This document shows, one piece after another, positions 9,609-33,687 of a stretch of 64,000 nt of DNA. The notes under the pieces are model-generated. The model searched no databases. It worked only from the letters and a program-made list of their open reading frames with translations, and had not been told where the DNA came from. The first letter of the stretch is position 1. The number at the start of each line of letters is the position of its first letter. The position numbers were made by a program, and so were the translations under genes. The stretch spans positions 2,542 through 66,541 of the forward strand of contig DAIRTE010000001.1 of NCBI GenBank assembly GCA_036804025.1, given 5' to 3'. Origin of the DNA: Clostridia bacterium (GTDB lineage: Bacteria; Bacillota; Clostridia; Christensenellales; CAG-138).

Positions 9609-10058
9609 TCAGGCGTTGGTGATGTCGGAAAATACGAAGCCTTTTCGAATGATAATATCCCCCATGACGCGCGGGTCGGAGGTCTGTATGGTTGCATAGG
9701 CGTCTCTGGTGCGCTGGTAGAACTCCTTGCGGGATACTCGATTGAGGATCAGCGGGGTAGAAGAAGGGACGTTTTTGAGCACGTTCTGATAATCGTTCCA
9801 AATCTGCGGTTCTTCATAAATCCCATAATCGAGAGACATGATCGTAACCGGGAACTCTTCGTCATTGTCCAACGGGAAATATTTCAAAATCTCGGCCAAC
9901 AGCTTGTGATTTTCCTTCGTATAGGAATATACGACCTTTTTGCTCATGGCCGACGCCATATAGTTCGCATCCGCGATTACCAACTCGTCAAGATGCCCCA
10001 TACGGTAAATCACTTCATAGATTTCGGGTGTGATCAGATTCGATATCTTTATCAACAT
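9609..10058 (-). CDS. RbsD/FucU-family sugar mutarotase (pyranase)
   Basis: 149 aa. Aligns by eye with E. coli FucU along its length (LITPEIYEVIYRMGHLDELVIADANY vs [26 protein letters not shown]). Divergent from the PTS operon. Confidence 0.8.
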   Translation of the reverse strand: MLIKISNLITPEIYEVIYRMGHLDELVIADANYMASAMSKKVVYSYTKENHKLLAEILKYFPLDNDEEFPVTIMSLDYGIYEEPQIWNDYQNVLKNVPSSTPLILNRVSRKEFYQRTRDAYATIQTSDPRVMGDIIIRKGFVFSDITNA

Positions 10059-10303
10059 AATGGCATTTCCTCGAAAGACGGTTTATTTGTTCTAATAGAG
10101 AATTGTGCGAAATGATTACGGCTGTAATTATATGCCGATCCTGTTTTCTGTCAAGGCTAGCGGCAATTTGCCATCCAAAACCGGCGAGATATCTGCCAAA
10201 GTTGCATCATATTTGTGTGAAGAGAAAGGAACTATGGATCGGATGTATGGGATGTTATATTAAATATAAGTGCATGCGCGAAATAAAAACGGAGGTGGGT
10301 TTT

Positions 10304-11563
10304 GTGGAATTTTTACAGTCGGCTCTGAACTGGTATGCTGCTCTCCCCGCGGCGGTCATGATTATGATCGGCATCTTTCTCGTGGGACTCTTACTTGCTC
10401 GATTAAATCCCTTGCGGGCACTCAAAGCTTCAATTTATGTTGCGGCAGGCATCATCGGCCTGAACACGCTGGTTGGCATGTTCGCTAGCGCAATCATCCC
10501 GGTGCTGGTGAAGGTCATCAGCGCGACCGGTATGAAACTCGACGTGATTGACCTGGGGGTTGCATCCGCCCAGTCTTTTGTCATCTTCCCGCTCAAGTTT
10601 TATGCGATCCTGTTGATTGTCGGCCTTGGGGTCAACATTCTGATGATTGCATTAAAGCTGACCAAGACGTTTGACGTTGATATTTTCAACTACTATGTAT
10701 GGGCGCTGTCCTCCGCGTTTGTTTATGTTCTGACGAACAGCGTTGGTTGGGCAATCGCCGCGTTTGTTGTAACGGAGGTAGTCATCCTCAAGTTGGCGGA
10801 TCTCACACAGCCGGCAATTGCCAGAGAATACGGTTTGGAAGGCGTATCCGTTCCGCATGGCAACGCGGTCGTCTTCGCACCGGTTGGTATGCTGGTGAAC
10901 TGGATCATCGAAAAGATTCCGAAGGTAAGAGACATCAACTGGAGCCCGGAAGCGATTGAAAAGAAGTTCGGCGGCATTGTCGAACCGTCCACATTGGGCT
11001 TTGTCATGGGCATCGTCCTTGGCATCATCGCAAAGTCTTCGGCCGGTGAAGTGATTCAGCTGGGCCTGATCACGGCGGCGTTCATGATTATCTTCCCGAA
11101 GGTACTGAATATCCTGATCGAAGGCATTACGCCGGTTGCGGACGGCATGCGAGAATTTACGGAGAAAAAACTGCACAGACAGCTTCACATCGGTCTGGAT
11201 GCTGCGATTCTGGTTGGCATGCCGGACGTCATGGCGACCGGTATTCTCCTTGTGCCCGTTATCCTGCTTCTTGCGTTCATTCTCCCCGGAAACCGGGTAC
11301 TGCCGATGGCCGACCTAGCGATTGCGGCGCCCTTCCTGGTGAGCTGCGCGATGCCCTACTGTAAAAAGAACATCTTCAGAGGGTTTATCAGCGGCATCAT
11401 CATCTTTATCATTGCGCTCTATATGTGCACCGGTACTGCCGCGCTGTATACGCAAGCGGCGGCGTTGAATGGCGTTCCGTTTGAATCGACGTCTACCTCG
11501 CTGGGCATCTGCTCGACGCCGGTCAGCTGGATCATCGCCAAGATTACAGCACTGTTTTCGTAA
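10304..11563 (+). CDS. PTS galactitol-family EIIC permease
   Basis: Collinear by eye with E. coli GatC (VDIFNYYVW, VSVPHGNAVVFAPVGMLVNWIIEKIPKV, GIVEPSTLGFVMGIVLGIIA). Start set at GTG 10304, 8 nt after ggagg (10291-10295). The ORF is open from 10103. Confidence 0.9.
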   Translation: MEFLQSALNWYAALPAAVMIMIGIFLVGLLLARLNPLRALKASIYVAAGIIGLNTLVGMFASAIIPVLVKVISATGMKLDVIDLGVASAQSFVIFPLKFYAILLIVGLGVNILMIALKLTKTFDVDIFNYYVWALSSAFVYVLTNSVGWAIAAFVVTEVVILKLADLTQPAIAREYGLEGVSVPHGNAVVFAPVGMLVNWIIEKIPKVRDINWSPEAIEKKFGGIVEPSTLGFVMGIVLGIIAKSSAGEVIQLGLITAAFMIIFPKVLNILIEGITPVADGMREFTEKKLHRQLHIGLDAAILVGMPDVMATGILLVPVILLLAFILPGNRVLPMADLAIAAPFLVSCAMPYCKKNIFRGFISGIIIFIIALYMCTGTAALYTQAAALNGVPFESTSTSLGICSTPVSWIIAKITALFS

Positions 11564-11584
11564 GAACCAAACGATCCATGATCT

Positions 11585-11621
11585 CGCCAGTACAGCCGCA
11601 AGTTCTGTGGCTGTACTGGCG
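11585..11621 (+). promoter_or_regulatory. intercistronic RNA stem-loop between EIIC and EIIB
   Basis: Perfect 13-bp inverted repeat cgccagtacagcc / ggctgtactggcg with an 11-nt loop. No U-tract follows. Confidence 0.5.
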
Positions 11622-11638
11622 AATAGAAAGGTGAACAT

Positions 11639-11926
11639 ATGGACAAAAAGAGAATCATCGTTGCTTGCGGCACTGGCGGTGTAACGTCAAAAAACGTGGC
11701 GATGAAGATTGAGAAGTTTCTCAAAGAGAAGAACGTGGACTGCTTTATTGATACGTGCAAAGTGGTTGAAGTACGCGAAAAGGCGAAGCTTCTCAAGCCG
11801 GATCTGGTCGTATCCCCCACGCAATTGCCGGAAGTTGGAGTGCCGAAAGTGGTTGCAACCGCGCTGCTGACGGGCGTTGGGGCGGATAAAGTTTACAACG
11901 AAATATACGACATCCTCATGAAATGA
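11639..11926 (+). CDS. PTS EIIB component (galactitol/lactose-type PTS_IIB)
   Basis: 95 aa. MDKKRIIVACGTGGVTS carries the phospho-Cys at residue 10, as in GatB. Confidence 0.9.
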   Translation: MDKKRIIVACGTGGVTSKNVAMKIEKFLKEKNVDCFIDTCKVVEVREKAKLLKPDLVVSPTQLPEVGVPKVVATALLTGVGADKVYNEIYDILMK

Positions 11927-11945
11927 GGGAGGTAGGAGAAGAAGC

Positions 11946-12977
11946 GTGTTGATTGAGTGTGATAGCAGATTGTGGTTTGGGAAATACGGCGGATGCTTTA
12001 TTGCCGATGCGTTTACGCTGGGCTGTGACCGATATTATGATGAATACCGCAAAGCGGTTGCGGACCCTGAGTTCATTCGGGTGTATGAACAGCTCAAGAA
12101 ACAGTTTGTCGATGATTCCTTTCGGTTTGTTGCAACAGAGAAAGGAAATCTGACACTCTGTTTTGCACCGGAGAACGTATACTCCATATTGGGAACGGCG
12201 CTACTGGTAAAAAAGCTGAACAAGAAGAAAGCGGTGTCCGGTGTTCGTTATGCCGATGAGGCGATTTGCTGCGCGCGCGTTTGTGCCGAGCTGGGCGTAC
12301 CCCTCAAGCTGTATCTGGCGCACGATATTGCCGGGATCTCTTCTTTGCGCACAAGGCTTGCCTCGCTTGGCGCGGAGTATGACGCCGAAATCTGCGGCGA
12401 GCTGTTTAATCTGCCCGAAATGTATGCGTTCCAGGAGTGGGTTGCATCGCCGGACGAACTCGGAATCATCAACTGCAGAAGCAATGTTGGCGCATTTCCG
12501 CAGGTCAACATCGCTACCGATTTTTCAAAAGAATACGGGGAGAAGTTCCGTGAGTCTTTGGAAAAAGAATGCGCCGACGGATACAACCGAATCGTAGTGC
12601 CGAGCATCAGCGGTTCGCTCGCGTTGGCGGTATGGAAAGCGTTTGAAGATTCCGCTGTGCGCCTGATCAGCGTGGAGTGCGATCCAGTCGATGATTTAAC
12701 CGAGGAGCTGGACAGCTACTGTGGAACGTTTACGAAGGTCATGCGCAATCGTTTTGTCGACCGGGTACCGGCCCCGGAATGGATGGCCGTGGTGGAGGAA
12801 GGCAAGGCTGAGCGGGTGATCGTCGGCTTCGATCAGGCAACTAAGACGGCCGATCCTCGCGCCATAGCCGAAACCGTTTCCCTGCAAAGTCTGGCGGCGC
12901 TTTGCCACAGTGAATCCCTGAAGAACGAGAAGGTAATCTGCGTTGTCAGGGGCATGCGGTGGGGTGTGGAGCTATGA
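11946..12977 (+). CDS. tryptophan synthase beta (TrpB)-like protein, degenerate; PLP-lysine block and GGGSN loop not conserved
   Basis: 343 aa, GTG start 7 nt after aggag. The TrpB N-terminal signature WFGKYGGCFIADAF...DPEF and later collinear blocks are present. HTGAHK, ETGAGQHG and GGGSN are replaced. Confidence 0.7.
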   Translation: MLIECDSRLWFGKYGGCFIADAFTLGCDRYYDEYRKAVADPEFIRVYEQLKKQFVDDSFRFVATEKGNLTLCFAPENVYSILGTALLVKKLNKKKAVSGVRYADEAICCARVCAELGVPLKLYLAHDIAGISSLRTRLASLGAEYDAEICGELFNLPEMYAFQEWVASPDELGIINCRSNVGAFPQVNIATDFSKEYGEKFRESLEKECADGYNRIVVPSISGSLALAVWKAFEDSAVRLISVECDPVDDLTEELDSYCGTFTKVMRNRFVDRVPAPEWMAVVEEGKAERVIVGFDQATKTADPRAIAETVSLQSLAALCHSESLKNEKVICVVRGMRWGVEL

Positions 12978-13840
12978 CGGACAGAATTACAGATACCATT
13001 CGAAGAGCCCAGGCGAACGGGCGCGTGGCTTTCATCGGACTGGTGCCGATTGAACCGGACAGCATGGCGCATTCGCTTCGAATTGCCGACGCGATGGTTC
13101 AATCGGGCGTCGACATTCTGATGGCGCACATCCCAAACTGGATTCCCTGGATGGAGGGCAAGGCGCTTCAGCGAGCGGCGCAGGAACCAAGAAACGCCGG
13201 TATTTCGCGAGAGCAGATTTTCGATTTTATTAAGGCGCTGCGTAACCAACATCCGCAAGTGCCGATTATCAACATGACGCTCTACGACACGGCGCTTACC
13301 ATGGGCCAGGATACGTTTTTCCGGCTCTCGGAGGAAGCGGATGTAGATGGTTTCGATATCCCGAACTATCCGCTGGTCAGTACCGAAGATAAATTCGGCT
13401 TTTATGAACAGTGCCTCAAGCAAGGCAGACACCTGATTCTCGCCATTTCTTATGAGATTGCTACGGCAAAGGAGGGTACACAGGAGTATCAAATGCTCCT
13501 TGAGATGGCTAAGAGAGCGAGAGGCTTTGCGTTTATCATGAACGCGCCGGGCGGAAAGTCCGGGTCGGATGTGAAGCTGTCGAATGAGGAACTGCGTTCC
13601 GCCGTGCAGCGCGTAAAATCGGTGATGAAGGCACAGGGGAATGACTGCTATACCTCTATTGTGTGCGGGATTTCCGGAAAAGAAGACTTAATAAAAGTGA
13701 AGCATTCCGGGGCGGAGAGCTTCATGATCGGCAGCGCATATATTCAAATGCTGCAGGACGGAAAATCACTGGAAGAGGTTTCAAGCTATCTGCAAGGAAT
13801 CCGAAACATGTGCAATCTTGACTGCGAGGTGTCCGGATGA
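12974..13840 (+). CDS. tryptophan synthase alpha (TrpA)-like TIM-barrel protein, paralogue 1 (catalytic Glu/Asp positions substituted)
   Basis: Full-length collinearity with TrpA (AFIGLVP.., DILMAHIPNWIPWMEGK, VPIINMTLY, VDGFDIPNYP, VCGIS, IGSAYI). ATGA overlap with the TrpB-like gene. Confidence 0.75.
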   Translation: MTDRITDTIRRAQANGRVAFIGLVPIEPDSMAHSLRIADAMVQSGVDILMAHIPNWIPWMEGKALQRAAQEPRNAGISREQIFDFIKALRNQHPQVPIINMTLYDTALTMGQDTFFRLSEEADVDGFDIPNYPLVSTEDKFGFYEQCLKQGRHLILAISYEIATAKEGTQEYQMLLEMAKRARGFAFIMNAPGGKSGSDVKLSNEELRSAVQRVKSVMKAQGNDCYTSIVCGISGKEDLIKVKHSGAESFMIGSAYIQMLQDGKSLEEVSSYLQGIRNMCNLDCEVSG

Positions 13841-14682
13841 ACGCGGTTGAGCAAAAATTTCTGGACTATGAGGCGAAGAACAAAGGCGCCATCATCGTAG
13901 AAATCCCGCTTCTAGCGCCCATTCCGCAGACGCAGCTGGACGTAGCGGAGGTTCTGGTAAAAGCCGGAGTCGACGTGATTCAGGTGCCGATTCCGGTGCG
14001 ATTTCCCTGGATGTACGGCGCGCGGATACAGACCATCCAGAAGATGGCGGCGCAGAACGATGTTTGCTATCGCCAGTCATTCCAGGTGCTTTCCATGTTG
14101 ATCGAGAAGTACAAGCAAACCGAGTTCATGCCGGTTGGATTCTACGGCGGACTGCAGCGCATGGGTCAGGAAAACTACGTGGAGCAATGCGCCCGATTGG
14201 GAATCAAGATGGTGGACGTGCCGGATTACCCGATTGTTCATGACGATGACCCGCAAGGACTGTTGAAAGCGCTTCAGGGCAAAGGCATATCGTTTGTTAC
14301 GGTCATCAGTACAGAGATGGCACTGGAACCGGAAGGAAGCCGCGGGTATCAACAGCTGGAGCGGTTGATCGCAGTATCGAGCGGATTCTGCTTTTTGCTG
14401 GCCGCGGCCGGTGGAAAAACCGGAGAAAAGAAAGCCTTTGATTATGGCACGCTGGCCAAAGCGAAGGCAAGGATACTAGAAGTTCAGAGTAAGGTGAATA
14501 GACGCTGCCCCATCGTCGCTGTTTGCGGCATATCGGAACCGGAGCAGGTTCGAATACTGGTGAAGGACATTGGCCTGCACGTCATGTTTGGCAGCGCGCT
14601 CTTCACCCGCATGATGCGGGGCGACAGCAGCGAAGAAATCTATCGATTCCTATTGGAAATGAAACAGGCTGCAAGCGAATAA
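13837..14682 (+). CDS. tryptophan synthase alpha (TrpA)-like TIM-barrel protein, paralogue 2 (catalytic Glu/Asp positions substituted)
   Basis: 281 aa. DVIQVPIPVRFPWMYGA, MVDVPDYP, AVCGIS and FGSALF are collinear with TrpA and with paralogue 1. ATGA overlap with paralogue 1. Confidence 0.75.
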   Translation: MNAVEQKFLDYEAKNKGAIIVEIPLLAPIPQTQLDVAEVLVKAGVDVIQVPIPVRFPWMYGARIQTIQKMAAQNDVCYRQSFQVLSMLIEKYKQTEFMPVGFYGGLQRMGQENYVEQCARLGIKMVDVPDYPIVHDDDPQGLLKALQGKGISFVTVISTEMALEPEGSRGYQQLERLIAVSSGFCFLLAAAGGKTGEKKAFDYGTLAKAKARILEVQSKVNRRCPIVAVCGISEPEQVRILVKDIGLHVMFGSALFTRMMRGDSSEEIYRFLLEMKQAASE

Positions 14683-14703
14683 TGCAAGTAAAAGGGAAAC
14701 AAC

Positions 14704-15180
14704 ATGGCTGGAGAGATTAAGATACTGGAATCGTGCATCGATTTAAACCTTGCCGCAGACACCAAGGAAGGCGTTATTACGAGCCTTGCCGGTAGGCTTG
14801 CGGAACAGGGCTTTGTTGATTCGAAATATGTTGATAAGGTTGTGCAGCGGGAGCAGGAGTATCCGACGGGGTTGATTTTCCCTGGAATTCAGATTGCTTT
14901 GCCGCACGGCAGCTCGGAACATGTGAAGACGTCTGCAATAGCGGTAGGACGATGTGTGAAGAAACCGGAATTTGCAAACATGGAAGACTTTTCACAAAAA
15001 ATCAAAGTGGATATGGTTGTTGTACTTGCGATAAAGGACCCGGACAGACACCTGATCATTCTAAATAATCTGATTGAGCTGTTCACCTCGAATGAAAACT
15101 GTAAGGTTCTTTTGGGATGCGACTCGAGCGCAGAAGTCTGCCGACTGTTTCGAAATTGCCTTTATCAGATGAACGAATAG
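14704..15180 (+). CDS. PTS EIIA component (PTS_EIIA_2, GatA/mannitol-fructose type)
   Basis: 158 aa. REQEYPTG and IALPHG (phospho-His) match GatA REAEFPTG and IAIPHC. Confidence 0.9.
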   Translation: MAGEIKILESCIDLNLAADTKEGVITSLAGRLAEQGFVDSKYVDKVVQREQEYPTGLIFPGIQIALPHGSSEHVKTSAIAVGRCVKKPEFANMEDFSQKIKVDMVVVLAIKDPDRHLIILNNLIELFTSNENCKVLLGCDSSAEVCRLFRNCLYQMNE

Positions 15181-15193
15181 AAGGAGAGAACAA

Positions 15194-15976
15194 ATGGCTG
15201 TGAATAGAATGGAACGAATACTCGGGGAAATGAAGCAGGCGGGCGAAAAGATATTGGTCGCCTATTATCCGCTATGCGATCCCCTGTTGGACGACCCGGT
15301 TGCATGGGCGGGCAAGTACTTTGAAAATGGTGCAACCGTTCTGGAGATGGGACTGCCATATGAGAATCCTTGCTTGGACGGAAAAATCGTTCGGGAATCG
15401 ATGGAACGCGCGCTGACGAAGCATACGGTTGACGATGCGTTCGACGTGATTGCGGAGCTTCGCCAAGCATATCCCAACAATATTCTGCAGGTGATGACCT
15501 ATTTCGAGATTATTGATAAAATGGGGATAGAGAATTTCGCAAAACGCTGCGCGGAGTGCGGCGCGGACGGCGTACTGACCCCCAACATCCCCCAATCTCG
15601 CGTAGCGGAGCTGGATCGGGCGCTTGGAGCTTATCATCTGCTGCAACTGCGCTTTGCCCCCTTCCATTTGAGCGGGGATGCCATAAACGACCTGAAGGCG
15701 AATGCCAAGGGGTATATCTTCCTGCAGGCGGTTGACGGCGCAACCGGGCCGCAGGAGAAGACCTCGCCGCAGGTTGGCGAAAATGTAAAAACGCTGAAGC
15801 AAAGCGGCATAGGCACCCCGGTCGTCGCCGGATTTGGCATTTCCAATGCGCAGCACGTACGAGAAATGAAGGCGATGGGCGCGGACGGCGTGATTGTTGG
15901 AAGCAAAATTATTTCGGAAATTCAGAACGGAAATGGCGAGGAGTTCATTCGACAGCTAAGGAGCGCATTGCAGTAA
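15194..15976 (+). CDS. tryptophan synthase alpha (TrpA)-like TIM-barrel protein, paralogue 3 (catalytic Glu/Asp retained)
   Basis: 260 aa. VLEMGLPYENPCLDGK matches TrpA ALELGxPFSDPLADGP. Also GADGVLTPNIP, GFGISNAQHV and VIVGSKII. RBS gaaggag. Confidence 0.8.
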   Translation: MAVNRMERILGEMKQAGEKILVAYYPLCDPLLDDPVAWAGKYFENGATVLEMGLPYENPCLDGKIVRESMERALTKHTVDDAFDVIAELRQAYPNNILQVMTYFEIIDKMGIENFAKRCAECGADGVLTPNIPQSRVAELDRALGAYHLLQLRFAPFHLSGDAINDLKANAKGYIFLQAVDGATGPQEKTSPQVGENVKTLKQSGIGTPVVAGFGISNAQHVREMKAMGADGVIVGSKIISEIQNGNGEEFIRQLRSALQ

Positions 15977-15990
15977 ACAAAAGGAGTAAT

Positions 15991-18162
15991 ATGGTCACCA
16001 TTACTCAACGTTGCCTGAACATGCTAAGACTCATCTGCAACAAACAAGGTCCAATCACGGCAAAACAAATTGCGAGCAATCTTGGAATCAGCGAAAGAAC
16101 TGCGCGATACGATCTTTCGCTCCTCCATGATTGGCTTGCGGAAAAAAACGTAACGTTGATGAGCGTTCCGAAAAAAGGCAGCTATTTCGAGGAAGACGAG
16201 AAAGCACGCGCACGGTTGCTACTCACGCAGTACAGCACGACGTATCAACCCTACGGGCTGTACCTGAATGTGGACGAGCGAGTCAACCGAATTATTCTTC
16301 AAATTCTGCACGGGCAGGAAGATAAAGCCATTGACGATCTTTCGGAGGAGCTCGGCATCAGTCGGGCAACGTTCGTTCGAGACATGGAGAAAGCGGAGAA
16401 CTGGTTTGAGCTGCATCAGGTGACCCTGCAGCGTGGGCAGAAGAAAGGCGTCCATCTGGACGTCGACGAGATTACCCGTCGCAGCCTAATGGTGGTGTTT
16501 CTCATCGAAAACACGAGCATCCATTCCTTTCTGGATTCTTACTGGGTGCGCGACTCTGGCGAGAATAAACCGGCTCAGCCATACTGCGCGTTTTCCGCCG
16601 TGCAACAGCTTCAGCAGTCGGTGAATTTTGACCGATTGTATCAGATCTTGGATGAATATCTGTCCAACATTCAGATCGTAGTATCGGACAATACGGTCAC
16701 TTGGCTTATCTATTATGTAGCGGTGATGGCGGCGCGAATAAAGGAAGGAAAGCACATCGAAACCCTTCCGAATCAATACGATCAGTTCGTTAATACGGAT
16801 GCATATGCAAAGATCAGAGAGGTATTGAAAGAGCAATTCTTTGGAAATATCGATGAAGCGCAATTGAGCAACGAAGCGTGCTTCATCGTCGGTCGGTTGT
16901 TTGCCGCCGCGACGAACATGAAGGACACCATCAACGAAGAGAACAGCGAGATCGCAAATCGCGTTTACCTATTCATTCTAAACAAAATCCGCCAGCACAT
17001 TGGTTATGATATGCGGGGCAGCGCGGAGCTGGCGGACGGTTTGAAGACGCATTTGCAGGCTTCTCTGGTGCGGGCGCAGCTGAACATTACGACGAGCAAC
17101 GCCATGCTCGACGAGATCAAGCGCAAATTCTCGGATCTGTTTGAAACATGCAGCTTTATTGCGGACGAAGTCAACGAGACATTTGACCTGCATTTTGATG
17201 AGAACGAAGTTGGATTCATTGTGTTATACATCGTGGCGGCTATGGAGCAAATGCACAAAACGGTCTTGAAACCAACAATGGTGCGCGCCGTGCTGGTCTG
17301 TGGATATGGGTTGGGTACCGTGTCGCTGCTGATGAATTCGCTGGAGAAGCACTTTCCGAGCATTGAGATCGTGGATAAACTGTCGATTTTTACGTTGAAC
17401 CGGTATGATTTTTCGGATGTGGACGTGGTGCTCTCAACAGTTGATATTCCGCTGACACTGCTTAAGCCAACCATCAAAGTGAGCCCGATTCTCACGAAGC
17501 TCGACGAGCGAAAGATCGATTCCTTTTTAAGAAATGGTCGAATGACGGCGAAAAACAATCTGCAGGATGTTCAAATGACGGAGTTGCTGAATATCATTGG
17601 CAACAACTGCGAGATTCGAAACAACAAGAAACTGCTGGAAGATCTGGATCGCATGCTGCGCACGTTTGCCGACGTACCCCAAACGCTCACAAGCCTGCCT
17701 GCGCTGCCGGATGTTTTGCTGAAGAAATATATCGTCGCCCAGATCGAAGCGGATACCTGGGAAGAGGCGGTTCTGAAGGCGGCCCAACCCTTGCTGGAGA
17801 ACGGCTGCATCACCATGGAGTATATCGACCAGATCTTCGGAATGAAGAATCGATTCGGGCAGTATTCCATCATTGCGCCCGGCGTGTGCATGCCGCATGC
17901 GACGCCAGGCGAGAGCGGAAAGCTGGCCATGTCGCTGGCTACACTGAAAAGGCCGGTTCGAGTTGTCGTGGAAGGCGAAGCGGTCGACATCCATGTATTT
18001 ATGGTGCTCTCGCTCGTGGATTCCATTTCGCACGCCAAAGCACTGGACGAGGTATTTCTGTTGCTGGACGAGTTCCCGAGCCTGGTGGATGAGCTAAAGT
18101 CGGCAACCAAATCGACGGATATTTCCAACGTGTTTAAAACGTACTACAACAAGCTTTTTTGA
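15991..18162 (+). CDS. PRD-domain transcriptional activator of the MtlR/LicR/ManR type (HTH-HTH-PRD-PRD-EIIB(Gat)-like-EIIA(Mtl)-like)
   Basis: 723 aa. N-terminal HTH (ITAKQIASNLGISERTARYDL) and a second wHTH, then a central helical PRD region. An EIIB-like block (VLVCGYGLGT) and a C-terminal EIIA-like block (CMPHATPGE) follow. No AAA+/sigma-54 module. Confidence 0.85.
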   Translation: MVTITQRCLNMLRLICNKQGPITAKQIASNLGISERTARYDLSLLHDWLAEKNVTLMSVPKKGSYFEEDEKARARLLLTQYSTTYQPYGLYLNVDERVNRIILQILHGQEDKAIDDLSEELGISRATFVRDMEKAENWFELHQVTLQRGQKKGVHLDVDEITRRSLMVVFLIENTSIHSFLDSYWVRDSGENKPAQPYCAFSAVQQLQQSVNFDRLYQILDEYLSNIQIVVSDNTVTWLIYYVAVMAARIKEGKHIETLPNQYDQFVNTDAYAKIREVLKEQFFGNIDEAQLSNEACFIVGRLFAAATNMKDTINEENSEIANRVYLFILNKIRQHIGYDMRGSAELADGLKTHLQASLVRAQLNITTSNAMLDEIKRKFSDLFETCSFIADEVNETFDLHFDENEVGFIVLYIVAAMEQMHKTVLKPTMVRAVLVCGYGLGTVSLLMNSLEKHFPSIEIVDKLSIFTLNRYDFSDVDVVLSTVDIPLTLLKPTIKVSPILTKLDERKIDSFLRNGRMTAKNNLQDVQMTELLNIIGNNCEIRNNKKLLEDLDRMLRTFADVPQTLTSLPALPDVLLKKYIVAQIEADTWEEAVLKAAQPLLENGCITMEYIDQIFGMKNRFGQYSIIAPGVCMPHATPGESGKLAMSLATLKRPVRVVVEGEAVDIHVFMVLSLVDSISHAKALDEVFLLLDEFPSLVDELKSATKSTDISNVFKTYYNKLF

Positions 18163-18186
18163 AAAAACTTTATAAGGAGAACAACG

Positions 18187-18453
18187 GTGGTTCAGAAAGA
18201 ATTTACAATCTGCAATGAGGTTGGTCTGCACGCGCGGCCGGCGTCCGAGCTTTGCGCGTTATGCAAGCAGTTTGAAAGCGAAATCAAAGGGAACACGCAA
18301 AAGAAAGCGTTTAATCCGAAGAGCGTGATCAGCATTCTGACCGCCGAGATCAAAAAAGGCACGAGCATTACCATTGAGGTCAATGGCGCGGACGAAGAGC
18401 AGGCGATGATTCGACTCACGAAGTTTTTCGACGGGCTGGCCGGAGAGTGTTGA
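18187..18453 (+). CDS. ptsH: phosphocarrier protein HPr
   Basis: 88 aa, GTG start after aaggag. GLHARPA carries His15, and Ser46 is present (NPKSVIS). Confidence 0.92.
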   Translation: MVQKEFTICNEVGLHARPASELCALCKQFESEIKGNTQKKAFNPKSVISILTAEIKKGTSITIEVNGADEEQAMIRLTKFFDGLAGEC

Positions 18454-19196
18454 CGAGCGCACAAGGAGACGAAGGATTGACAGACGAAACAGATGCGGCT
18501 TTGACAAACCGCTATGCCATCTTTGATATGGATGGCACGCTGATAGACTCCAACCCTTGGCTGTCCAAGGTGAGCGGCCGATACCTGGCCAGACGGGGGC
18601 TGCCACCAAACGAAAAATACGAAAATCTAGCCGCCGGCATGGTCTTTGAAGATTTTTGCCTGGCCATACGGGACTATGCGGGCGATCATAACCCACTGGA
18701 AGCCACCATTGATGAAATCAACGGATATACGTCGGAAGTGTATACGAAGTGCGACATTCCGGCGAAACCATATGTGCGGGAGTATTTGGAACTGCTTCGG
18801 AAGAACGGCGTTCGCATGTGCGTTGGCTCGGCAACCGAGAGAGACCGCATTGAGTCCGTACTCCGGCGGCTGTCGCTAAGAGACTTTTTTGAGTTTGTCG
18901 TTACGACTGTCGACGTGGGATGCGGCAAGAATAAGCCGGATCTTTTTATCGAAGCGGCCAAACGATTTGGCGTGAATGACTACAGCGGCGTTACGGTGTA
19001 TGACGATCATCTGCCCGCCATGAAGGCCGCAAAGTCGGCGTGTTTTCGTGTGGTTGGTGTTTATGACAAAGTTGGGGAACAGCAGGTCGAAGTGGCAAAG
19101 GAAGTATGCGATATTTTTTCGTATGATTTTGAAGCGCTTACTAAAAGGATTGTCAGCCGAGAGCAAGGCGCAGATTCGAAACGACAAGAGGGATGA
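18447..19196 (+). CDS. HAD-IA family phosphatase (beta-phosphoglucomutase-like hydrolase)
   Basis: DxDGT motif (AIFDMDGTLIDS), GSAT, and GKNKPD...YDDH. The ORF opens at GTG 18447, overlapping the ptsH stop. TTG 18477, 8 nt after aaggag, is an alternative start. Confidence 0.85.
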   Translation: MLTSAQGDEGLTDETDAALTNRYAIFDMDGTLIDSNPWLSKVSGRYLARRGLPPNEKYENLAAGMVFEDFCLAIRDYAGDHNPLEATIDEINGYTSEVYTKCDIPAKPYVREYLELLRKNGVRMCVGSATERDRIESVLRRLSLRDFFEFVVTTVDVGCGKNKPDLFIEAAKRFGVNDYSGVTVYDDHLPAMKAAKSACFRVVGVYDKVGEQQVEVAKEVCDIFSYDFEALTKRIVSREQGADSKRQEG

Positions 19197-19210
19197 TAAG
19201 GAGAAGACAT

Positions 19211-20953
19211 ATGCGAACAGGGGTGGCGGCTTCGCCCGGCATAGCAATTGGGAGAGCCTATCGATATCTGAAAAATGCGATTGCCATCAATGAGAACACG
19301 CTTCGAGAGGATGAGATCGAAGCGCAAGTGCAGGTTCTGGACGAAGCGCTGGTCAAAACGAAATCGCAGCTGACCGACTTATGTGCATACGCTTCGGAAA
19401 AACTGGGGAACGACAAAGCGAAAATATTCGAAAGCCACCTGGACATGATCGAGGACGAGGAGCTGATGAATGATATTCGTCAGAACATCGTTGATAAGCG
19501 TATGTTTCCGGATGCGGCGGTTCAAGCTGCGGTAAAGAAATATACGGAACTCTTCGGCCAGATCGAGGATGCATACATCCGTGAGCGAATTGCAGATATT
19601 CAGGATGTCTGTTCCCGGTTGATGAATAACATCTGCGGCGTTCCAACGATGTCCCTCAACCAGGTGACGGAGGAATCGATTGTAATCGCGAAAGACCTCG
19701 CACCGTCGGATACGGTGCAACTCAACAAAGCCGTCGTCAAAGGATTCTGCACGGACGTAGGCGGATTTACATCGCACACGGCCATCATGGCAAGGACGCT
19801 TGGAATTCCGGCTGTCGTTGGCTTGCAGAACATTACAGACGACGTTTCAGATGGTGATATTATCATTGTTGACGGCGGCAAGGGGCAGGTACTGATCAAT
19901 CCGAATCAGGCGCTGCTTCGGCAATATGAAACGCGAAAGGCGACGGAAGAAGCGGAACAACAGGCGCTCAGAAAACTGATTCATTTCCCAGCTCAGACCA
20001 GCGATGGCGCACGAACGGTTGAGCTTGCAGCGAATATCGGATCGATTGAGGACTGCGAAGCAGCATTGGAGAACGGCGCAGAAGGTGTCGGTTTGCTCCG
20101 TACGGAGTTCTTTTACATGGGCAGAAGCACTCTGCCAAGCGAGGAAGAACAGTTCCGAATCTACAAGAGCATACTCCAGAAGATGGCGCCTCATGCGGTA
20201 AGCATTCGAACGCTGGATATCGGCGGCGATAAGAAAACCGCATGTATCGAGATTCCGGAGGAGGAAAATCCGTTTCTTGGTTGGCGCGCGATCCGAATCT
20301 GTCTGGAACGTACGGATATTTTTAAAACGCAGTTGCGCGCGATTTTGCGGGCCAGCCACTTTGGAAAAGCGCGAATCCTGTTTCCAATGATCTCTGATTT
20401 ATCCGAAATCAGAAGGGCGAAAGCAATCCTGAATAGCGTAATGCAAGAGCTGGACTCGCAGAAGATCGCATACAACAAAGAGATCGAAATTGGAATTATG
20501 ATCGAGGTGCCTGCGGCAGCAATCGCCGCGGATCTCCTGATTCAGGAGGTAGATTTCTTTAGCATTGGAACCAACGATCTGGTTCAGTACACGCTAGCAG
20601 TCGATCGGATGAACGGGAAGATTTCCAATCTTTATAAGCCTTTGAACATTGCCGTTTTGCGGTTGGTGAAAAACGTCGTTGCCGTTTCGCATGACGCGGG
20701 GAAATGGACCGGGATGTGCGGCGAACTGGCCGGATGCACCGAAGCGACCCCGATTCTGTTGGGACTCGGACTGGACGAACTATCGATGAGCAGCGCCTCC
20801 CTGTTGAAGGTGAAGAGCGCGATTCGCTCCTGCACTCTTGCGCAGGCACAAGCGATTACAAAAGAGGCGTTGAGCCTAAACGAAACGGAGAAGATTGAAG
20901 CTCTGCTGGCGCAAGTAAGCGAGCAACTTTCGCTTACGAAAGAACGGGATTAG
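19211..20953 (+). CDS. ptsI: phosphoenolpyruvate-protein phosphotransferase (PTS Enzyme I)
   Basis: N-terminus MRTGVAASPGIAIGRAY, active-site GGFTSHTAIMARTLGIP, and C-terminal PEP-utilising domain (GTNDLVQYTLAVDR). ATG 19211 follows aaggagaag; the ORF is open from 19193. Confidence 0.95.
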   Translation: MRTGVAASPGIAIGRAYRYLKNAIAINENTLREDEIEAQVQVLDEALVKTKSQLTDLCAYASEKLGNDKAKIFESHLDMIEDEELMNDIRQNIVDKRMFPDAAVQAAVKKYTELFGQIEDAYIRERIADIQDVCSRLMNNICGVPTMSLNQVTEESIVIAKDLAPSDTVQLNKAVVKGFCTDVGGFTSHTAIMARTLGIPAVVGLQNITDDVSDGDIIIVDGGKGQVLINPNQALLRQYETRKATEEAEQQALRKLIHFPAQTSDGARTVELAANIGSIEDCEAALENGAEGVGLLRTEFFYMGRSTLPSEEEQFRIYKSILQKMAPHAVSIRTLDIGGDKKTACIEIPEEENPFLGWRAIRICLERTDIFKTQLRAILRASHFGKARILFPMISDLSEIRRAKAILNSVMQELDSQKIAYNKEIEIGIMIEVPAAAIAADLLIQEVDFFSIGTNDLVQYTLAVDRMNGKISNLYKPLNIAVLRLVKNVVAVSHDAGKWTGMCGELAGCTEATPILLGLGLDELSMSSASLLKVKSAIRSCTLAQAQAITKEALSLNETEKIEALLAQVSEQLSLTKERD

Positions 20954-20984: not shown

Positions 20985-21009
20985 GCCGATGCAAGTGCGT
21001 CGGCTTTTT
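20985..21009 (+). terminator. rho-independent terminator ending the PTS operon
   Basis: 8-bp stem gccgatgc/gcgtcggc (one G-U pair) with an AAGT loop, followed by ttttt (21005-21009). Confidence 0.6.
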
Positions 21010-23092: not shown

Positions 23093-23264
23093 GATCGAAT
23101 TCCTTTCCGGATATAGTGAATATTATAATACAAAAGTGATAATATTAATAGAACAGATGTATCGACAACCCATATAATGAGTGTATCAACCAGTCGCCCG
23201 GCTCAACATTTCAACGGGCAGAATCATCCAACCATACAGACAATTGAACAAGGAGGAAGAGAAG

Positions 23265-24536: not shown

Positions 24537-24550
24537 CGTTTCGAACAAAG

Positions 24551-24590
24551 GCGGCGCTCCACCAATGCGGGTGCGAGCGCCGCTCTTTCT
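24551..24590 (+). promoter_or_regulatory. stem-loop after the SBP gene (attenuating terminator or mRNA stabiliser)
   Basis: 9-bp stem gcggcgctc/gagcgccgc plus inner cacc/ggtg pairing, followed by tctttct. Sits between the SBP and permease genes. Confidence 0.4.
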
Positions 24591-24628
24591 GCAAAGACTT
24601 CCGTGGAGACCGGAAAGGGAGGCTGCCT

Positions 24629-25849: not shown

Positions 25850-25864
25850 GGGGAGGGAAAGCGA

Positions 25865-33678: not shown

Positions 33679-33687
33679 GTGACCAGC

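What the first reader, a model, noticed from the sequence alone, without database searches (positions are those of the whole stretch)
9609..20953. Self-contained Gat-family PTS operon whose only candidate catabolic enzymes are one TrpB-like and three TrpA-like proteins
Seen: eleven co-directional genes with 4-nt overlaps or gaps mostly under 30 nt (largest ~75 nt, EIIC-EIIB). The order is EIIC(Gat), EIIB, TrpB-like, TrpA-like 1, TrpA-like 2, EIIA, TrpA-like 3, PRD/MtlR-type activator, HPr, HAD phosphatase, Enzyme I. An RbsD/FucU mutarotase is transcribed divergently. There is no trpC/D/E/F/G, kinase, class I/II aldolase or dehydrogenase in the unit. Established: TrpA is a ribulose-phosphate-binding (beta/alpha)8 barrel that cleaves indole-3-glycerol phosphate to indole plus glyceraldehyde-3-P. 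Other barrels of that superfamily (KGPDC UlaD/SgbH, RPE-like SgcE, HPS) process PTS-generated sugar phosphates in the ula/sgb/sgc operons. Inference: these TrpA/TrpB homologues were recruited to convert the phosphorylated PTS product. They could act as a C-C lyase releasing a triose-P, or as an isomerase/epimerase. This would be an undescribed catabolic route rather than Trp biosynthesis. I know of no characterised PTS with this enzyme set.
Basis: partly seen in the sequence, partly recalled or inferred. Interest (0 to 1): 0.88.

Follow-up and report, generated by a model that had tools for sequence, protein, structure and literature searches.

The report
Sugar-uptake operon built on tryptophan-synthase relatives
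A group of uncultured gut bacteria carries a conserved sugar-import (PTS) operon whose only enzymes are diverged copies of the two tryptophan synthase subunits. One copy keeps the indole-releasing active site and the others have lost theirs, which points to an undescribed pathway that probably splits an imported indole-bearing polyol into indole and a glycolytic triose phosphate.

Summary
Eleven co-directional genes (about 10274-20953) encode a Gat-type PTS, a PRD activator, HPr, Enzyme I, a HAD phosphatase, one TrpB-like protein and three TrpA-like proteins.

The eight-gene core EIIC-IIB-TrpBL-AL1-AL2-EIIA-AL3-regulator keeps the same order wherever the contig covers it: about 15 distinct loci from MAGs and metagenome contigs, at 29-87% identity.

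- **AL3** keeps every TrpA catalytic, phosphate-site and indole-pocket residue I checked, but forms its own clade.
- **AL1 and AL2** lack Glu49 and Asp60 and carry a new invariant Asp.
- **TrpBL** has a TrpB fold but lacks the PLP lysine across its whole family, so it is a pseudoenzyme or a repurposed protein.

Variant loci use AL3 alone with the same PTS. Others use the same enzyme types with MFS plus kinase or ABC plus FGGY kinase. So AL3 acts on an imported, phosphorylated substrate.

Three separate loci place tryptophan genes next to the system: T-box(UGG)-trpB, trpS and trpBA.

Best reading: the PTS phosphorylates an indolyl-glycerol-like polyol and AL3 cleaves it to indole plus glyceraldehyde-3-P. 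The substrate and the role of TrpBL/AL1/AL2 remain unproven. I found no literature on this system.

The parts
10274..11563 (+). PTS EIIC, Gat family. The alternative start at 10304 gives 419 aa, as in the orthologues.
   Evidence: Pfam EIIC-GAT 195 bits. TIGR00827 gives 308 bits, full length but below the equivalog cut-off. Identity is 51-87% in type I loci and 68-72% in type III loci.
11639..11926 (+). PTS EIIB (Gat/Lac type), with a VACGTG motif. By my recollection of GatB, this motif holds the phosphorylated Cys.
   Evidence: Pfam PTS_IIB 39 bits. The best NCBIfam match is galactitol IIB.
11946..12977 (+). TrpBL: a protein with a TrpB fold that lacks the PLP-binding lysine. It is a pseudoenzyme or a repurposed protein.
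   Evidence: TIGR00263 gives 51 bits against a cut-off of 392. The AF2 model has pLDDT 90.9, and all top 50 PDB matches are TrpB at TM 0.82. Lys87 is absent in the family and a short deletion (6-8 residues, depending on the alignment) removes the preceding HGG(A) stretch. The carboxylate loop is gone and Ser377 is not conserved.
12974..13840 (+). AL1: a TrpA-like barrel without the TrpA catalytic pair (E49M, D60E) but with the phosphate site kept. It is translationally coupled to TrpBL.
   Evidence: Trp_syntA 89 bits. Residue table over 13 orthologues. The family is isolated: 49% identity or more, then 27% or less.
13837..14682 (+). AL2: a TrpA-like barrel grouping with AL1 and the type II AL in a 99% clade. 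It has E49Q, D60Y, F22E and L127D, and keeps the phosphate site.
   Evidence: Trp_syntA 78 bits. Residue table. It shares insertions with AL1 and sits in the AL clade at 99% bootstrap.
14704..15180 (+). PTS EIIA (Fru/Mtl/Gat type)
   Evidence: Pfam PTS_EIIA_2 104 bits.
15194..15976 (+). AL3: a TrpA-type lyase with a complete catalytic site and an indole-type pocket. It is the predicted key enzyme acting on the PTS product.
   Evidence: Trp_syntA 175 bits. TIGR00262 gives 179 bits, above the cut-off of 102. E49, D60, T183, G184, GFG and GS are present in 13 of 13 orthologues. Pocket comparison with orthodox TrpA. It forms its own clade at 80% bootstrap. In type III loci it is the only enzyme present.
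15991..18162 (+). PRD-containing transcriptional activator (HTH_11-Mga-PRD-IIB-like-EIIA_2; MtlR/LicR type)
   Evidence: Pfam PRD 72 bits, EIIA_2 67 bits, HTH_11 55 bits. It is conserved at this position in all type I and type III loci whose contigs reach it.
18187..18453 (+). HPr phosphocarrier
   Evidence: TIGR01003 gives 77 bits, above its cut-off. It is present in about half of the type I loci.
18447..19196 (+). HAD-IA phosphatase (HxpB / beta-PGM-like)
   Evidence: Pfam Hydrolase 75 bits. The best NCBIfam matches are the bPGM family and hexitol phosphatase HxpB, both below cut-off. Other loci carry a non-orthologous Cof-type phosphatase at the equivalent place.
19193..20953 (+). PTS Enzyme I
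   Evidence: TIGR01417 gives 667 bits, above its cut-off.
20985..21004 (+). Terminator-like hairpin that closes the operon
   Evidence: Eight pairs (six G-C) followed by a T run. It is the best-scoring site in the scan.
9609..10058 (-). Divergent RbsD/FucU mutarotase. It is a neighbour, not a conserved part of the system.
   Evidence: Pfam 88 bits. It is absent next to the operon in all other loci except the same-species contig L022.

Best explanation
The operon is a substrate-inducible uptake-and-cleavage system for an exogenous polyol that carries an aromatic, most likely indole, group. The prime candidate is indole-3-glycerol or a close analogue.

Proposed steps:
1. EI, HPr, EIIA and EIIB pass phosphate to the Gat-type EIIC. 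EIIC imports the compound and phosphorylates its terminal primary hydroxyl, making an indole-3-glycerol-phosphate-like product.
2. AL3, a stand-alone TrpA-type retro-aldol lyase comparable to plant BX1/IGL, cleaves that product.
3. One product is D-glyceraldehyde-3-phosphate, which enters glycolysis. The other is free indole, which is released or converted to tryptophan by a separate TrpB.
4. TrpBL (a lysine-less TrpB fold) and AL1/AL2 (TrpA barrels that keep the phosphate site but lack Glu49/Asp60 and have a new invariant Asp127/Tyr131) descend from a coupled trpB-trpA pair. They probably form a tryptophan-synthase-like complex. That complex is an accessory: either an allosteric or scaffolding partner, or an additional isomerase or lyase that widens the substrate range.
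5. The HAD phosphatase is a relief valve, or a dephosphorylation step, for the phosphorylated intermediate.
6. The PRD activator couples expression to substrate transport.

Shown here: the gene content, the conservation, the residue patterns, the TrpB fold of TrpBL and the genomic associations.
Inferred: the substrate, the reaction, the complexes and the role of the phosphatase.
For: 1. The core order is conserved wherever the contig covers it, in about 15 distinct loci from Christensenellaceae, Oscillospiraceae, Lachnospiraceae, Erysipelotrichaceae and others.

2. AL3 keeps E49, D60, T183, G184, G211-F212-G213 and G234-S235 in 13 of 13 orthologues. Its pocket positions 22, 100, 102, 127, 129 and 232 match those of orthodox TrpAs. 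It passes the TrpA equivalog cut-off.

3. The AL3 clade is specifically tied to uptake plus phosphorylation.
- Type III loci are PTS + AL3 + regulator only, with an EIIC 68-72% identical to the window's.
- L027 and L115 use MFS + an APH-family kinase.
- L026 and L040 use ABC + a FGGY kinase.
- Of 74 control loci with orthodox-range TrpA, at least 49 have trpB adjacent and none has a PTS.

4. Links to tryptophan.
- A T-box with a UGG specifier plus a genuine trpB (541 bits) sits directly upstream of the closest relative's operon.
- trpS lies 4 nt after the phosphatase in L018 and L019.
- trpB-trpA follow the FGGY kinase in L040.

5. TrpBL has a TrpB fold but no conserved lysine in about 50 family representatives. 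A published precedent exists: the plant TSB-like pseudoenzyme activates TSA so that it releases free indole (PMC12727527).

6. The trpBL-AL gene pair is adjacent or overlapping in every architecture, like trpB-trpA.
Against: - No environmental source of indole-3-glycerol in the gut is established, and nothing here identifies the substrate directly.
- If AL3 alone is enough, the strongly conserved AL1, AL2 and TrpBL (40-75% identity, many invariant residues) remain unexplained.
- The recurrent phosphatase is not needed for a simple import-cleave scheme.
- The canonical alpha-Asp56 / beta-Lys167 contact is absent, so an allosteric TrpB-TrpA-type interaction cannot be assumed.
- Some variant loci carry an SDR, a XylB-like kinase or FrlB/FrlD-like neighbours. 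These hint at ketose or Amadori-type substrates instead.
- The tryptophan-gene adjacency rests on 3 of about 25 loci.
- The list of TrpA pocket residues comes from my recollection of Salmonella TrpA structures, not from a structure analysed here.
Confidence: 0.45

Rival explanations
1. The operon catabolises a non-aromatic sugar, polyol or sugar-acid phosphate. The PTS product would be an ordinary carbohydrate phosphate, for example a deoxy-ketose, an Amadori compound or a pentitol/hexitol derivative. AL1 and AL2 would act as new isomerases or epimerases, and AL3 as a new aldolase releasing triose-P.
For: - The transporter is Gat-type, and the regulation is typical of sugar operons: a PRD activator, or a SorC regulator in type II.
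- AL1 and AL2 have a new invariant Asp127/Tyr131 at the barrel's catalytic face and keep the phosphate site.
- Variant loci carry an SDR plus a XylB-like FGGY kinase, FrlB/FrlD-like genes or GH3 plus a GPH transporter.
- Sugar-phosphate phosphatases recur.
Against: - AL3 keeps Asp60 and a hydrophobic, aromatic pocket. In TrpA these serve only to bind and activate indole.
- TrpA chemistry has no Schiff-base lysine or metal to cleave an ordinary ketose phosphate.
- Three independent adjacencies to trpB, trpS and trpBA are unexplained by this reading.
Confidence: 0.3
2. The TrpA/TrpB-like proteins process the imported compound into a product that is finally dephosphorylated by the HAD enzyme. Under this reading the route is a conversion or salvage pathway to a free metabolite such as an indole derivative or a cofactor precursor, not an energy-yielding cleavage.
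For: - Non-orthologous phosphatases (HAD-IA or Cof-type) recur in at least 8 loci across all architectures, including the kinase-based L115.
- trpS is co-transcribed in L018.
- PTS products are known to be dephosphorylated inside the cell in other systems, for example maltose-6'-P phosphatase MapP (my own knowledge).
Against: - The phosphatase is absent from several complete loci (L003, L020, type III).
- All three TrpA-like barrels keep phosphate-binding loops, and AL3 looks like a lyase.
- No aminotransferase, oxidoreductase or ligase is present in the core.
Confidence: 0.12
3. AL3 with TrpBL makes free indole from endogenous indole-3-glycerol phosphate as a signal or toxin, as in the plant TSA/TSB-like system. 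The PTS would only provide regulation.
For: Plant precedent (PMC12727527). TrpBL is a catalytically dead TrpB fold.
Against: - The enzymes are always linked to an uptake-plus-phosphorylation module (PTS, MFS + kinase, or ABC + kinase), which argues for an exogenous substrate.
- No trpC-F genes lie nearby.
- Type III loci lack TrpBL altogether.
Confidence: 0.05
4. These are ordinary tryptophan-synthase genes that happen to lie in a PTS operon.
For: NCBI and JGI annotate AL1 and AL3 as 'tryptophan synthase subunit alpha'. AL3 passes the TIGR00262 cut-off.
Against: - TrpBL has no PLP lysine, and AL1/AL2 lack E49 and D60.
- AL3 is 34% identical or less to orthodox TrpAs and falls in a separate clade.
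- The PTS linkage is conserved.
- L040 carries an orthodox trpBA pair as well.
Confidence: 0.02

Closest known systems
Tryptophan synthase alpha2-beta2 (TrpA/TrpB)
   Same: - TrpBL has the TrpB fold (TM 0.82 to TrpB structures).
- AL1, AL2 and AL3 match Trp_syntA.
- The trpB-like gene comes before the trpA-like gene with overlapping stop and start codons.
- AL3 keeps the catalytic Glu49/Asp60, the phosphate site and the indole pocket.
   Different: - There is no PLP lysine, no carboxylate loop and no conserved Ser377 in TrpBL.
- AL1 and AL2 lack the catalytic pair.
- The alpha-Asp56 / beta-Lys167 contact is lost.
- There are no trpC-G genes.
- The genes sit inside a PTS operon under a PRD activator.
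Plant stand-alone IGP lyases (BX1, IGL) and the TSB-like pseudoenzyme that activates TSA (Florean et al. 2025, PMC12727527)
   Same: - These are TrpA-family lyases that release free indole outside tryptophan synthesis.
- A catalytically dead TrpB paralogue is kept as a partner.
   Different: - By that paper's account, plant TSB-like differs from TSB at two key residues.
- Here the lysine is lost together with a deletion just before it.
- The bacterial system is linked to import and phosphorylation of an external substrate.
- It contains one or two extra TrpA-like proteins that lack the TrpA catalytic pair.
- Whether TrpBL pairs with AL3 or with AL1/AL2 is untested.
Gat / Ula / Sgc-type PTS operons that use phosphate-binding (beta/alpha)8 enzymes (UlaD, SgbH, SgcE; galactitol gatYZABCD)
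   Same: - Gat-superfamily EIIC/IIB/EIIA.
- The product is processed by ribulose-phosphate-binding barrels encoded in the same operon.
   Different: - The barrels here belong to the TrpA family.
- There is no dehydrogenase, no kinase and no class I or II aldolase.
- The EIIC falls below the galactitol equivalog cut-off (308 against 542 bits), so the substrate is different.
MtlR/LicR/ManR-type PRD activators
   Same: The HTH-Mga-PRD-EIIB-like-EIIA architecture, encoded within the regulated PTS operon.
   Different: Type II and the kinase variants use a SorC-family regulator instead. L040 uses a GntR/UTRA regulator. No operator or cre site was identified.

Membership tests
TrpA (tryptophan synthase alpha / IGP lyase) | Matches the family HMM above the curated cut-off | tested here: met
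   AL3 gives 179 bits on TIGR00262, above the cut-off of 102. AL1 (93 bits) and AL2 (77 bits) fall below the equivalog cut-off but above the Pfam gathering score.
TrpA (tryptophan synthase alpha / IGP lyase) | Catalytic Glu49 and Asp60, with Thr183 | tested here: met
   Met for AL3 in 13 of 13 orthologues and in all type II, III and X relatives. Not met for AL1 (Met/Glu) or AL2 (Gln/Tyr).
TrpA (tryptophan synthase alpha / IGP lyase) | Phosphate-binding loops (Gly184, Gly213, Gly234-Ser235) | tested here: met
   Kept in AL1, AL2 and AL3, 13 of 13 each.
TrpA (tryptophan synthase alpha / IGP lyase) | Belongs to the orthodox TrpA clade and is encoded next to a functional trpB in a trp operon | tested here: not met
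   AL3 is 34% identical or less to orthodox TrpAs. It forms a separate clade at 80% bootstrap, or 87% with the X group. Its neighbours are PTS genes. Among control orthodox TrpAs, at least 49 of 74 have trpB adjacent and none has a PTS.
TrpA (tryptophan synthase alpha / IGP lyase) | Cleaves indole-3-glycerol phosphate to indole plus G3P | not testable with these tools
   An enzyme assay is needed.
TrpB (tryptophan synthase beta, PLP fold type II) | TrpB fold | tested here: met
   The AF2 model has pLDDT 90.9. All top 50 Foldseek PDB matches are TrpB, at TM 0.78-0.84 and 18-22% identity.
TrpB (tryptophan synthase beta, PLP fold type II) | Schiff-base lysine (Lys87) | tested here: not met
   A 6-8-residue deletion precedes the Lys87 column. 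That column reads Asn or Val in type I and Arg, Lys, Trp, Leu and others in 43 further representatives. No lysine-rich column exists anywhere in the alignment.
TrpB (tryptophan synthase beta, PLP fold type II) | Substrate carboxylate loop (Thr110-His115), PLP phosphate loop GGGSN, Ser377 | tested here: not met
   The carboxylate loop is replaced by RYADEA in type I. Only Gly234-Ser/Thr235 remain of the phosphate loop. Ser377 is not conserved.
TrpB (tryptophan synthase beta, PLP fold type II) | Family HMM above the curated cut-off | tested here: not met
   TIGR00263 gives 51 bits against 392. PALP gives 19 bits against 35.
Gat-family PTS (EIIC-GAT + IIB + EIIA_2) | All three components present, with matching HMMs | tested here: met
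   EIIC-GAT 195 bits, PTS_IIB 39 bits, EIIA_2 104 bits.
Gat-family PTS (EIIC-GAT + IIB + EIIA_2) | Galactitol specificity (equivalog-level match) | tested here: not met
   TIGR00827 gives 308 bits, below 542. GatB and GatA equivalogs are far below their cut-offs.
PRD-containing PTS activator (MtlR/LicR type) | N-terminal HTH/Mga domain, PRD, and EIIB-like plus EIIA domains | tested here: met
   HTH_11, Mga, PRD, PTS_IIB (weak) and EIIA_2, in that order.
Plant TSB-like pseudoenzyme system | A dead TrpB paralogue that binds and allosterically activates a TrpA-type lyase | not testable with these tools
   Only the loss of catalytic residues was tested, and it was met. Complex formation and activation need biochemistry.

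The most novel reading that the evidence does not exclude
Gut Clostridia and Erysipelotrichia have a previously unknown route. It imports indole-3-glycerol-type compounds through a dedicated PTS (or a transporter plus kinase), regenerates indole-3-glycerol phosphate and splits it into glyceraldehyde-3-P and indole. A bacterial 'pseudo-tryptophan synthase' (lysine-less TrpB plus TrpA paralogues lacking the TrpA catalytic pair) acts as an allosteric or new catalytic partner. This would be the first bacterial counterpart of the plant TSB-like system, the first catabolic or salvage use of tryptophan-synthase paralogues, and a new source of gut indole and tryptophan.
Probability: 0.3. Interest if true: 0.88.

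Novelty: new variant of a known kind. Interest (0 to 1): 0.8.

Why it matters
1. It defines a conserved, uncharacterised pathway in abundant but mostly uncultured gut Firmicutes. The building blocks were thought to be confined to tryptophan biosynthesis.

2. Indole and tryptophan are central host-microbe signalling molecules. A sugar-regulated system that releases indole would be a new source of them.

3. It would provide a bacterial family of TrpB-derived pseudoenzymes, and of TrpA paralogues that lack the TrpA catalytic pair. Both are useful for studying allostery and enzyme repurposing.

4. AL1 and AL3 are currently annotated as 'tryptophan synthase subunit alpha'. This can wrongly make these MAGs look like tryptophan prototrophs in metabolic reconstructions.

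5. A related PTS-TrpA-like cluster on a plasmid of a cultured Jeotgalibaca strain offers an experimental entry point.

Tried and rejected
- **AL1-AL2 fusion in L015.** My ORF-extension script suggested one. Translation shows a stop codon at 11842-11844, so I rejected it.
- **Lysine in the type II TrpB-like protein of L027.** A lysine aligns with Lys87, but other type II members have Trp or Gly there, and only 7 of 43 representatives have Lys. It is not conserved.
- **Riboswitch or T-box upstream of the PTS genes.** Rfam found nothing in the window, L018, L003 or L005. The only hit is the T-box in front of trpB in L017.
- **cre site in the promoter region.** No match between RbsD and EIIC. The promoter scan found no convincing plus-strand promoter upstream of EIIC.
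- **Plasmid search with AL3.** Hits were orthodox trpA at 31% identity or less. The Enterococcus raffinosus hit is a normal trpEGDCFBA operon. Only the Jeotgalibaca plasmid was relevant.
- **Metagenome scan with the AL3 profile.** One of the two patterns was too general. 74 of the 80 loci were orthodox trpA, which I then used as a control set.
- **tblastn of Salmonella TrpA against the whole window.** It failed to report AL3, although BLASTP gives E = 3e-29. I treated this as a search artefact.
- **Organism identity.** I could not establish it. The closest reference genome is a Christensenellaceae MAG at 72% identity for TrpBL.
- **Literature.** Four full-text searches found no description of a PTS linked to TrpA-like genes. 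The Mycoplasma californicum orphan-trpB paper was irrelevant.
- **First phylogeny script.** It timed out, and I re-ran it with a faster distance calculation.

Full report
**1.

ORF listing and HMM scans confirm eleven co-directional genes between about 10274 and 20953. In order they are:
- EIIC of the Gat family
- EIIB
- a TrpB-like protein (TrpBL)
- two TrpA-like proteins (AL1, AL2)
- EIIA
- a third TrpA-like protein (AL3)
- an HTH-Mga-PRD-EIIB-EIIA activator
- HPr
- a HAD-IA phosphatase
- Enzyme I

Intergenic distances are 75 nt or less, and three or four junctions overlap. The best terminator-like hairpin in the region lies 32 nt after EI, at 20985-21004. A perfect sigma-70 promoter on the other strand serves the divergent RbsD/FucU gene.

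Minor coordinate corrections:
- EIIC probably starts at 10274 or 10304, not 10103.
- AL1 probably starts at the ATG at 12974, overlapping the TrpBL stop codon.

No other trp gene, kinase, aldolase or dehydrogenase lies in the unit. There is no trpB anywhere in the 64-kb window.

**2. The arrangement is conserved, not a strain oddity**

TrpBL has only 47 clusters at 90% identity among 5.8 billion proteins. In 185,579 species-representative genomes it occurs in 10 loci. All are MAGs of Bacillota: Christensenellaceae, Oscillospiraceae, Pseudoflavonifractor, Lachnospiraceae, Ca. Mediterraneibacter, Erysipelotrichaceae and others. Several carry gut-catalogue names.

In every locus whose contig covers it, the order EIIC-IIB-TrpBL-AL1-AL2-EIIA-AL3-PRD regulator is identical. 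Identity to the window proteins runs from 29% to 87%.

Some elements are facultative:
- HPr appears in about half of the loci.
- EI appears in three or four.
- A phosphatase appears in most loci, but as two non-orthologous types, HAD-IA or Cof.
- The RbsD/FucU gene is a neighbour only in the window's own species.

**3. The four tryptophan-synthase relatives are not equivalent**

I aligned 13 orthologues of each TrpA-like protein with Salmonella TrpA.

| Protein | Position 49 (Glu in TrpA) | Position 60 (Asp in TrpA) | Other changes | Phosphate loops |
|---|---|---|---|---|
| AL3 | Glu | Asp | Thr183, Gly184, Gly211-Phe212-Gly213 and Gly234-Ser235 all kept | kept |
| AL1 | Met | Glu | Leu127 to Asp; Gly211-Phe212 to Val-Cys | kept |
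| AL2 | Gln | Tyr (11 of 13) | Phe22 to Glu; Leu127 to Asp; Val-Cys | kept |

AL1 and AL2 share insertions and an invariant Asp127 plus 'P-x-Y' motif, which the single AL protein of type II loci also carries. Together with that type II AL protein they form a clade with 99% bootstrap support.

The positions that line the indole pocket in TrpA, as I recall them from the Salmonella structures, are the same in AL3 as in orthodox TrpAs. These are Tyr22, Met100, Tyr102, Leu127, Pro129, Phe212 and Ile232. Differences sit at positions 153, 175, 177 and 180 and in loop 2. One of them is the loss of Asp56, which contacts the beta subunit in tryptophan synthase.

AL3 is nevertheless not an orthodox TrpA. 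Its family shows a sharp identity gap: about 95 clusters at 47% or more, two at 35%, and orthodox TrpAs at 34% or less. It forms its own clade in a neighbour-joining tree, at 80% bootstrap alone and 87% with the kinase-linked 'X' group.

**4. TrpBL has a TrpB fold without TrpB chemistry**

- The AlphaFold model is confident (pLDDT 90.9, pTM 0.91).
- All top 50 PDB matches are TrpB, at TM about 0.82 and 18-22% identity.
- A 6-8-residue deletion precedes the Lys87 position, and Lys87 itself is missing.
- The carboxylate-binding loop is replaced, and Ser377 is not conserved.

A profile search of 1.84 billion representatives finds three tiers:
- 7 type I representatives
- about 43 further proteins of 300-352 aa
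- orthodox TrpBs, which score below both

In this extended family the Lys87 column holds Asn, Arg, Lys, Trp, Leu and other residues. No column anywhere is rich in lysine. The family has its own invariant motifs: YGGCF(I/V)(A/S)DAF, NLPEMYAFQ, NCRSNVGAFPQ, ELDSYCGTFTK and four near-invariant cysteines. So it is constrained for some function other than PLP catalysis.

**5. Other architectures show which part does what**

| Architecture | Content |
|---|---|
| Type III (L036, L037) | EIIC-IIB-EIIA-AL3-PRD regulator only. EIIC is 68-72% identical to the window's. |
| Type II (L028-L032) | A more distant Gat PTS, one AL, a TrpBL, an AL3 and a SorC regulator. L031 and L032 also carry EI, HPr and a Cof phosphatase within the cluster. 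L028-L030 have EI and HPr nearby. One member is recorded in 65 index blocks. |
| Kinase variants (L027, L115) | AL3, TrpBL and AL with an MFS transporter and an APH-family kinase. L115 also has a HAD-IA phosphatase. |
| X group (L026, L040) | An AL3-like protein (35% identity, Glu49 and Asp60 kept) with a XylB-like FGGY kinase and a NitT/TauT-type ABC importer. |
| Cultured strain | The Jeotgalibaca sp. MA1X17-3 plasmid carries PRD regulator, IIB, an unannotated EIIC-like ORF and a TrpA-like gene with Glu49 and Asp60. |

Type I therefore looks like type III with a TrpBL-AL1-AL2 cassette inserted between IIB and EIIA.

The common denominator of all architectures is uptake, phosphorylation and an AL3-type lyase. 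As a control, 74 metagenome loci carrying orthodox-range TrpA have trpB adjacent in at least 49 cases and a PTS in none.

This places AL3 as the enzyme acting on the imported, phosphorylated compound. TrpBL-AL is always an adjacent, usually overlapping gene pair like trpB-trpA, and it behaves as an accessory module.

**6. Links to tryptophan**

- In the closest relative of the window (Christensenellaceae MAG, L007/L017), a T-box leader (119 bits) with a UGG specifier and a genuine trpB lie directly upstream of EIIC. That trpB scores 541 bits and carries the HTGAHK lysine motif.
- In L018 and L019, a tryptophanyl-tRNA synthetase gene starts 4 nt after the operon's phosphatase gene.
- In L040, the FGGY kinase is followed by an orthodox trpB-trpA pair.

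That is three such neighbours among about 25 distinct loci. My rough estimate of the number expected by chance is well below one. I treat this as suggestive evidence that the aromatic product is indole.

**7. Most likely mechanism (inference)**

1. The PTS phosphorylates the terminal hydroxyl of an indolyl-glycerol-type polyol.
2. AL3 performs the TrpA retro-aldol reaction. It releases glyceraldehyde-3-P for glycolysis and free indole, which a separate TrpB can turn into tryptophan.
3. AL3 probably works as a stand-alone lyase like plant BX1 or IGL. It occurs without TrpBL in some loci and lacks Asp56.
4. TrpBL with AL1 and AL2 probably forms a tryptophan-synthase-like assembly, possibly AL1-beta-beta-AL2. 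Its role is open.

Two roles for TrpBL-AL1-AL2 seem possible:
- An allosteric or scaffolding partner. The published precedent is the plant TSB-like pseudoenzyme, which activates TSA to release indole (PMC12727527).
- A new catalyst using Asp127 and Tyr131.

The recurrent phosphatase may relieve accumulation of the phosphorylated intermediate, or it may be a real pathway step. I cannot decide between these.

**8. Weak points**

- The substrate is not identified.
- I know of no established gut source of indole-3-glycerol.
- AL1, AL2 and TrpBL are too well conserved to be dismissed, yet they are unexplained.
- Some variant loci carry an SDR, a XylB-like kinase, FrlB/FrlD-like genes or GH3. These would fit ketose, Amadori or glycoside substrates.

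I therefore give the indolyl-polyol lyase model about 0.45 and the generic non-aromatic carbohydrate model about 0.3. Smaller weight goes to a conversion-and-dephosphorylation route, to endogenous indole production and, at essentially nil, to orthodox tryptophan synthesis.

**9. Comparison with known systems, and novelty**

| Component | Membership status |
|---|---|
| PTS, PRD regulator, HPr, EI, HAD | Ordinary members of their families |
| AL3 | Meets the sequence-level definition of TrpA, but not the phylogenetic or genomic-context criteria |
| TrpBL | Meets only the fold criterion for TrpB |
| AL1 and AL2 | Fail the catalytic-residue criterion for TrpA |

Four full-text literature searches found no description of a PTS, or any catabolic operon, built on TrpA/TrpB paralogues. 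Public annotations call the proteins 'tryptophan synthase subunit alpha' or 'hypothetical protein'.

I classify the system as a new variant of a known kind: a substrate-specific PTS operon with phosphate-binding-barrel enzymes. Its enzymology is undescribed.

I set interest at 0.8. A specialist would be surprised by a conserved bacterial pseudo-tryptophan-synthase inside a sugar operon. The hypothesis can be tested directly with a handful of enzyme assays.

Noticed in passing
L017 6488-8086 (Christensenellaceae MAG CAXXNY010000009.1): A T-box leader with a UGG (Trp) specifier sits in front of an apparently orphan trpB. No other trp gene lies in the 21 kb fetched. The pair is directly upstream of the PTS operon. 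It suggests indole-to-tryptophan salvage in that organism.
   Followed up: partly
L114 4391-8693 (Jeotgalibaca sp. MA1X17-3 plasmid NZ_CP090984.1): A cultured Carnobacteriaceae strain carries a PRD-type regulator, PTS IIB, an unannotated EIIC-like ORF of about 430 aa (possibly disrupted near its start) and a 233-aa TrpA-like gene with Glu49 and Asp60. This is a possible experimental handle.
   Followed up: partly
L040 6416-14105: A high-GC metagenome contig carries GntR/UTRA regulator, NMT1-type binding protein, permease, ATPase, AL3-like TrpA, XylB-like FGGY kinase, genuine trpB and orthodox trpA in one direction. Two different TrpA types sit side by side.
   Followed up: partly
L037 3367-5231: FrlD-like (fructoselysine kinase-like) and FrlB-like (deglycase-like) genes lie divergently upstream of a minimal PTS + AL3 cluster. 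This could be coincidence or a hint at Amadori-type substrates.
   Followed up: no
L115 1609-5304 and 11364-12647; L020 14994-16781: A GH3 glycosidase with a GPH-type transporter and a PHB-depolymerase-like esterase flank the kinase-type variant. Two PF00756 esterases lie beside a type I locus. Esterases recurring near the system might point to an esterified natural substrate.
   Followed up: no
window 26715-29672: A 985-aa protein fuses a complete GH65 glycoside phosphorylase (N, catalytic and C domains) to a C-terminal HAD domain of the beta-phosphoglucomutase type. It lies downstream of an AraC regulator and an ABC sugar importer (21887-26695).
   Followed up: no
window 30568-35700: A large NADH/FMN/Fe-S protein (Complex1_51K + NADH_4Fe-4S + Pyr_redox_2, 1036 aa) is followed by an [FeFe]-hydrogenase large subunit. 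This fits a strict anaerobe with an electron-bifurcating-type hydrogenase.
   Followed up: no
window 6294-8246: A 650-aa ORF with an N-terminal signal-like segment and a hydrophobic C-terminal half has no Pfam match at E of 1e-5 or better.
   Followed up: no
window 11946-12977 (TrpBL family): Four cysteines (Cys17, Cys27, Cys150, Cys259) are invariant across type I TrpBL proteins.
   Followed up: no
window 15194-15976: tblastn of Salmonella TrpA against the whole window failed to report AL3, although BLASTP of the same pair gives E = 3e-29. This is a reminder that the local tblastn screens used here can miss hits.
   Followed up: yes
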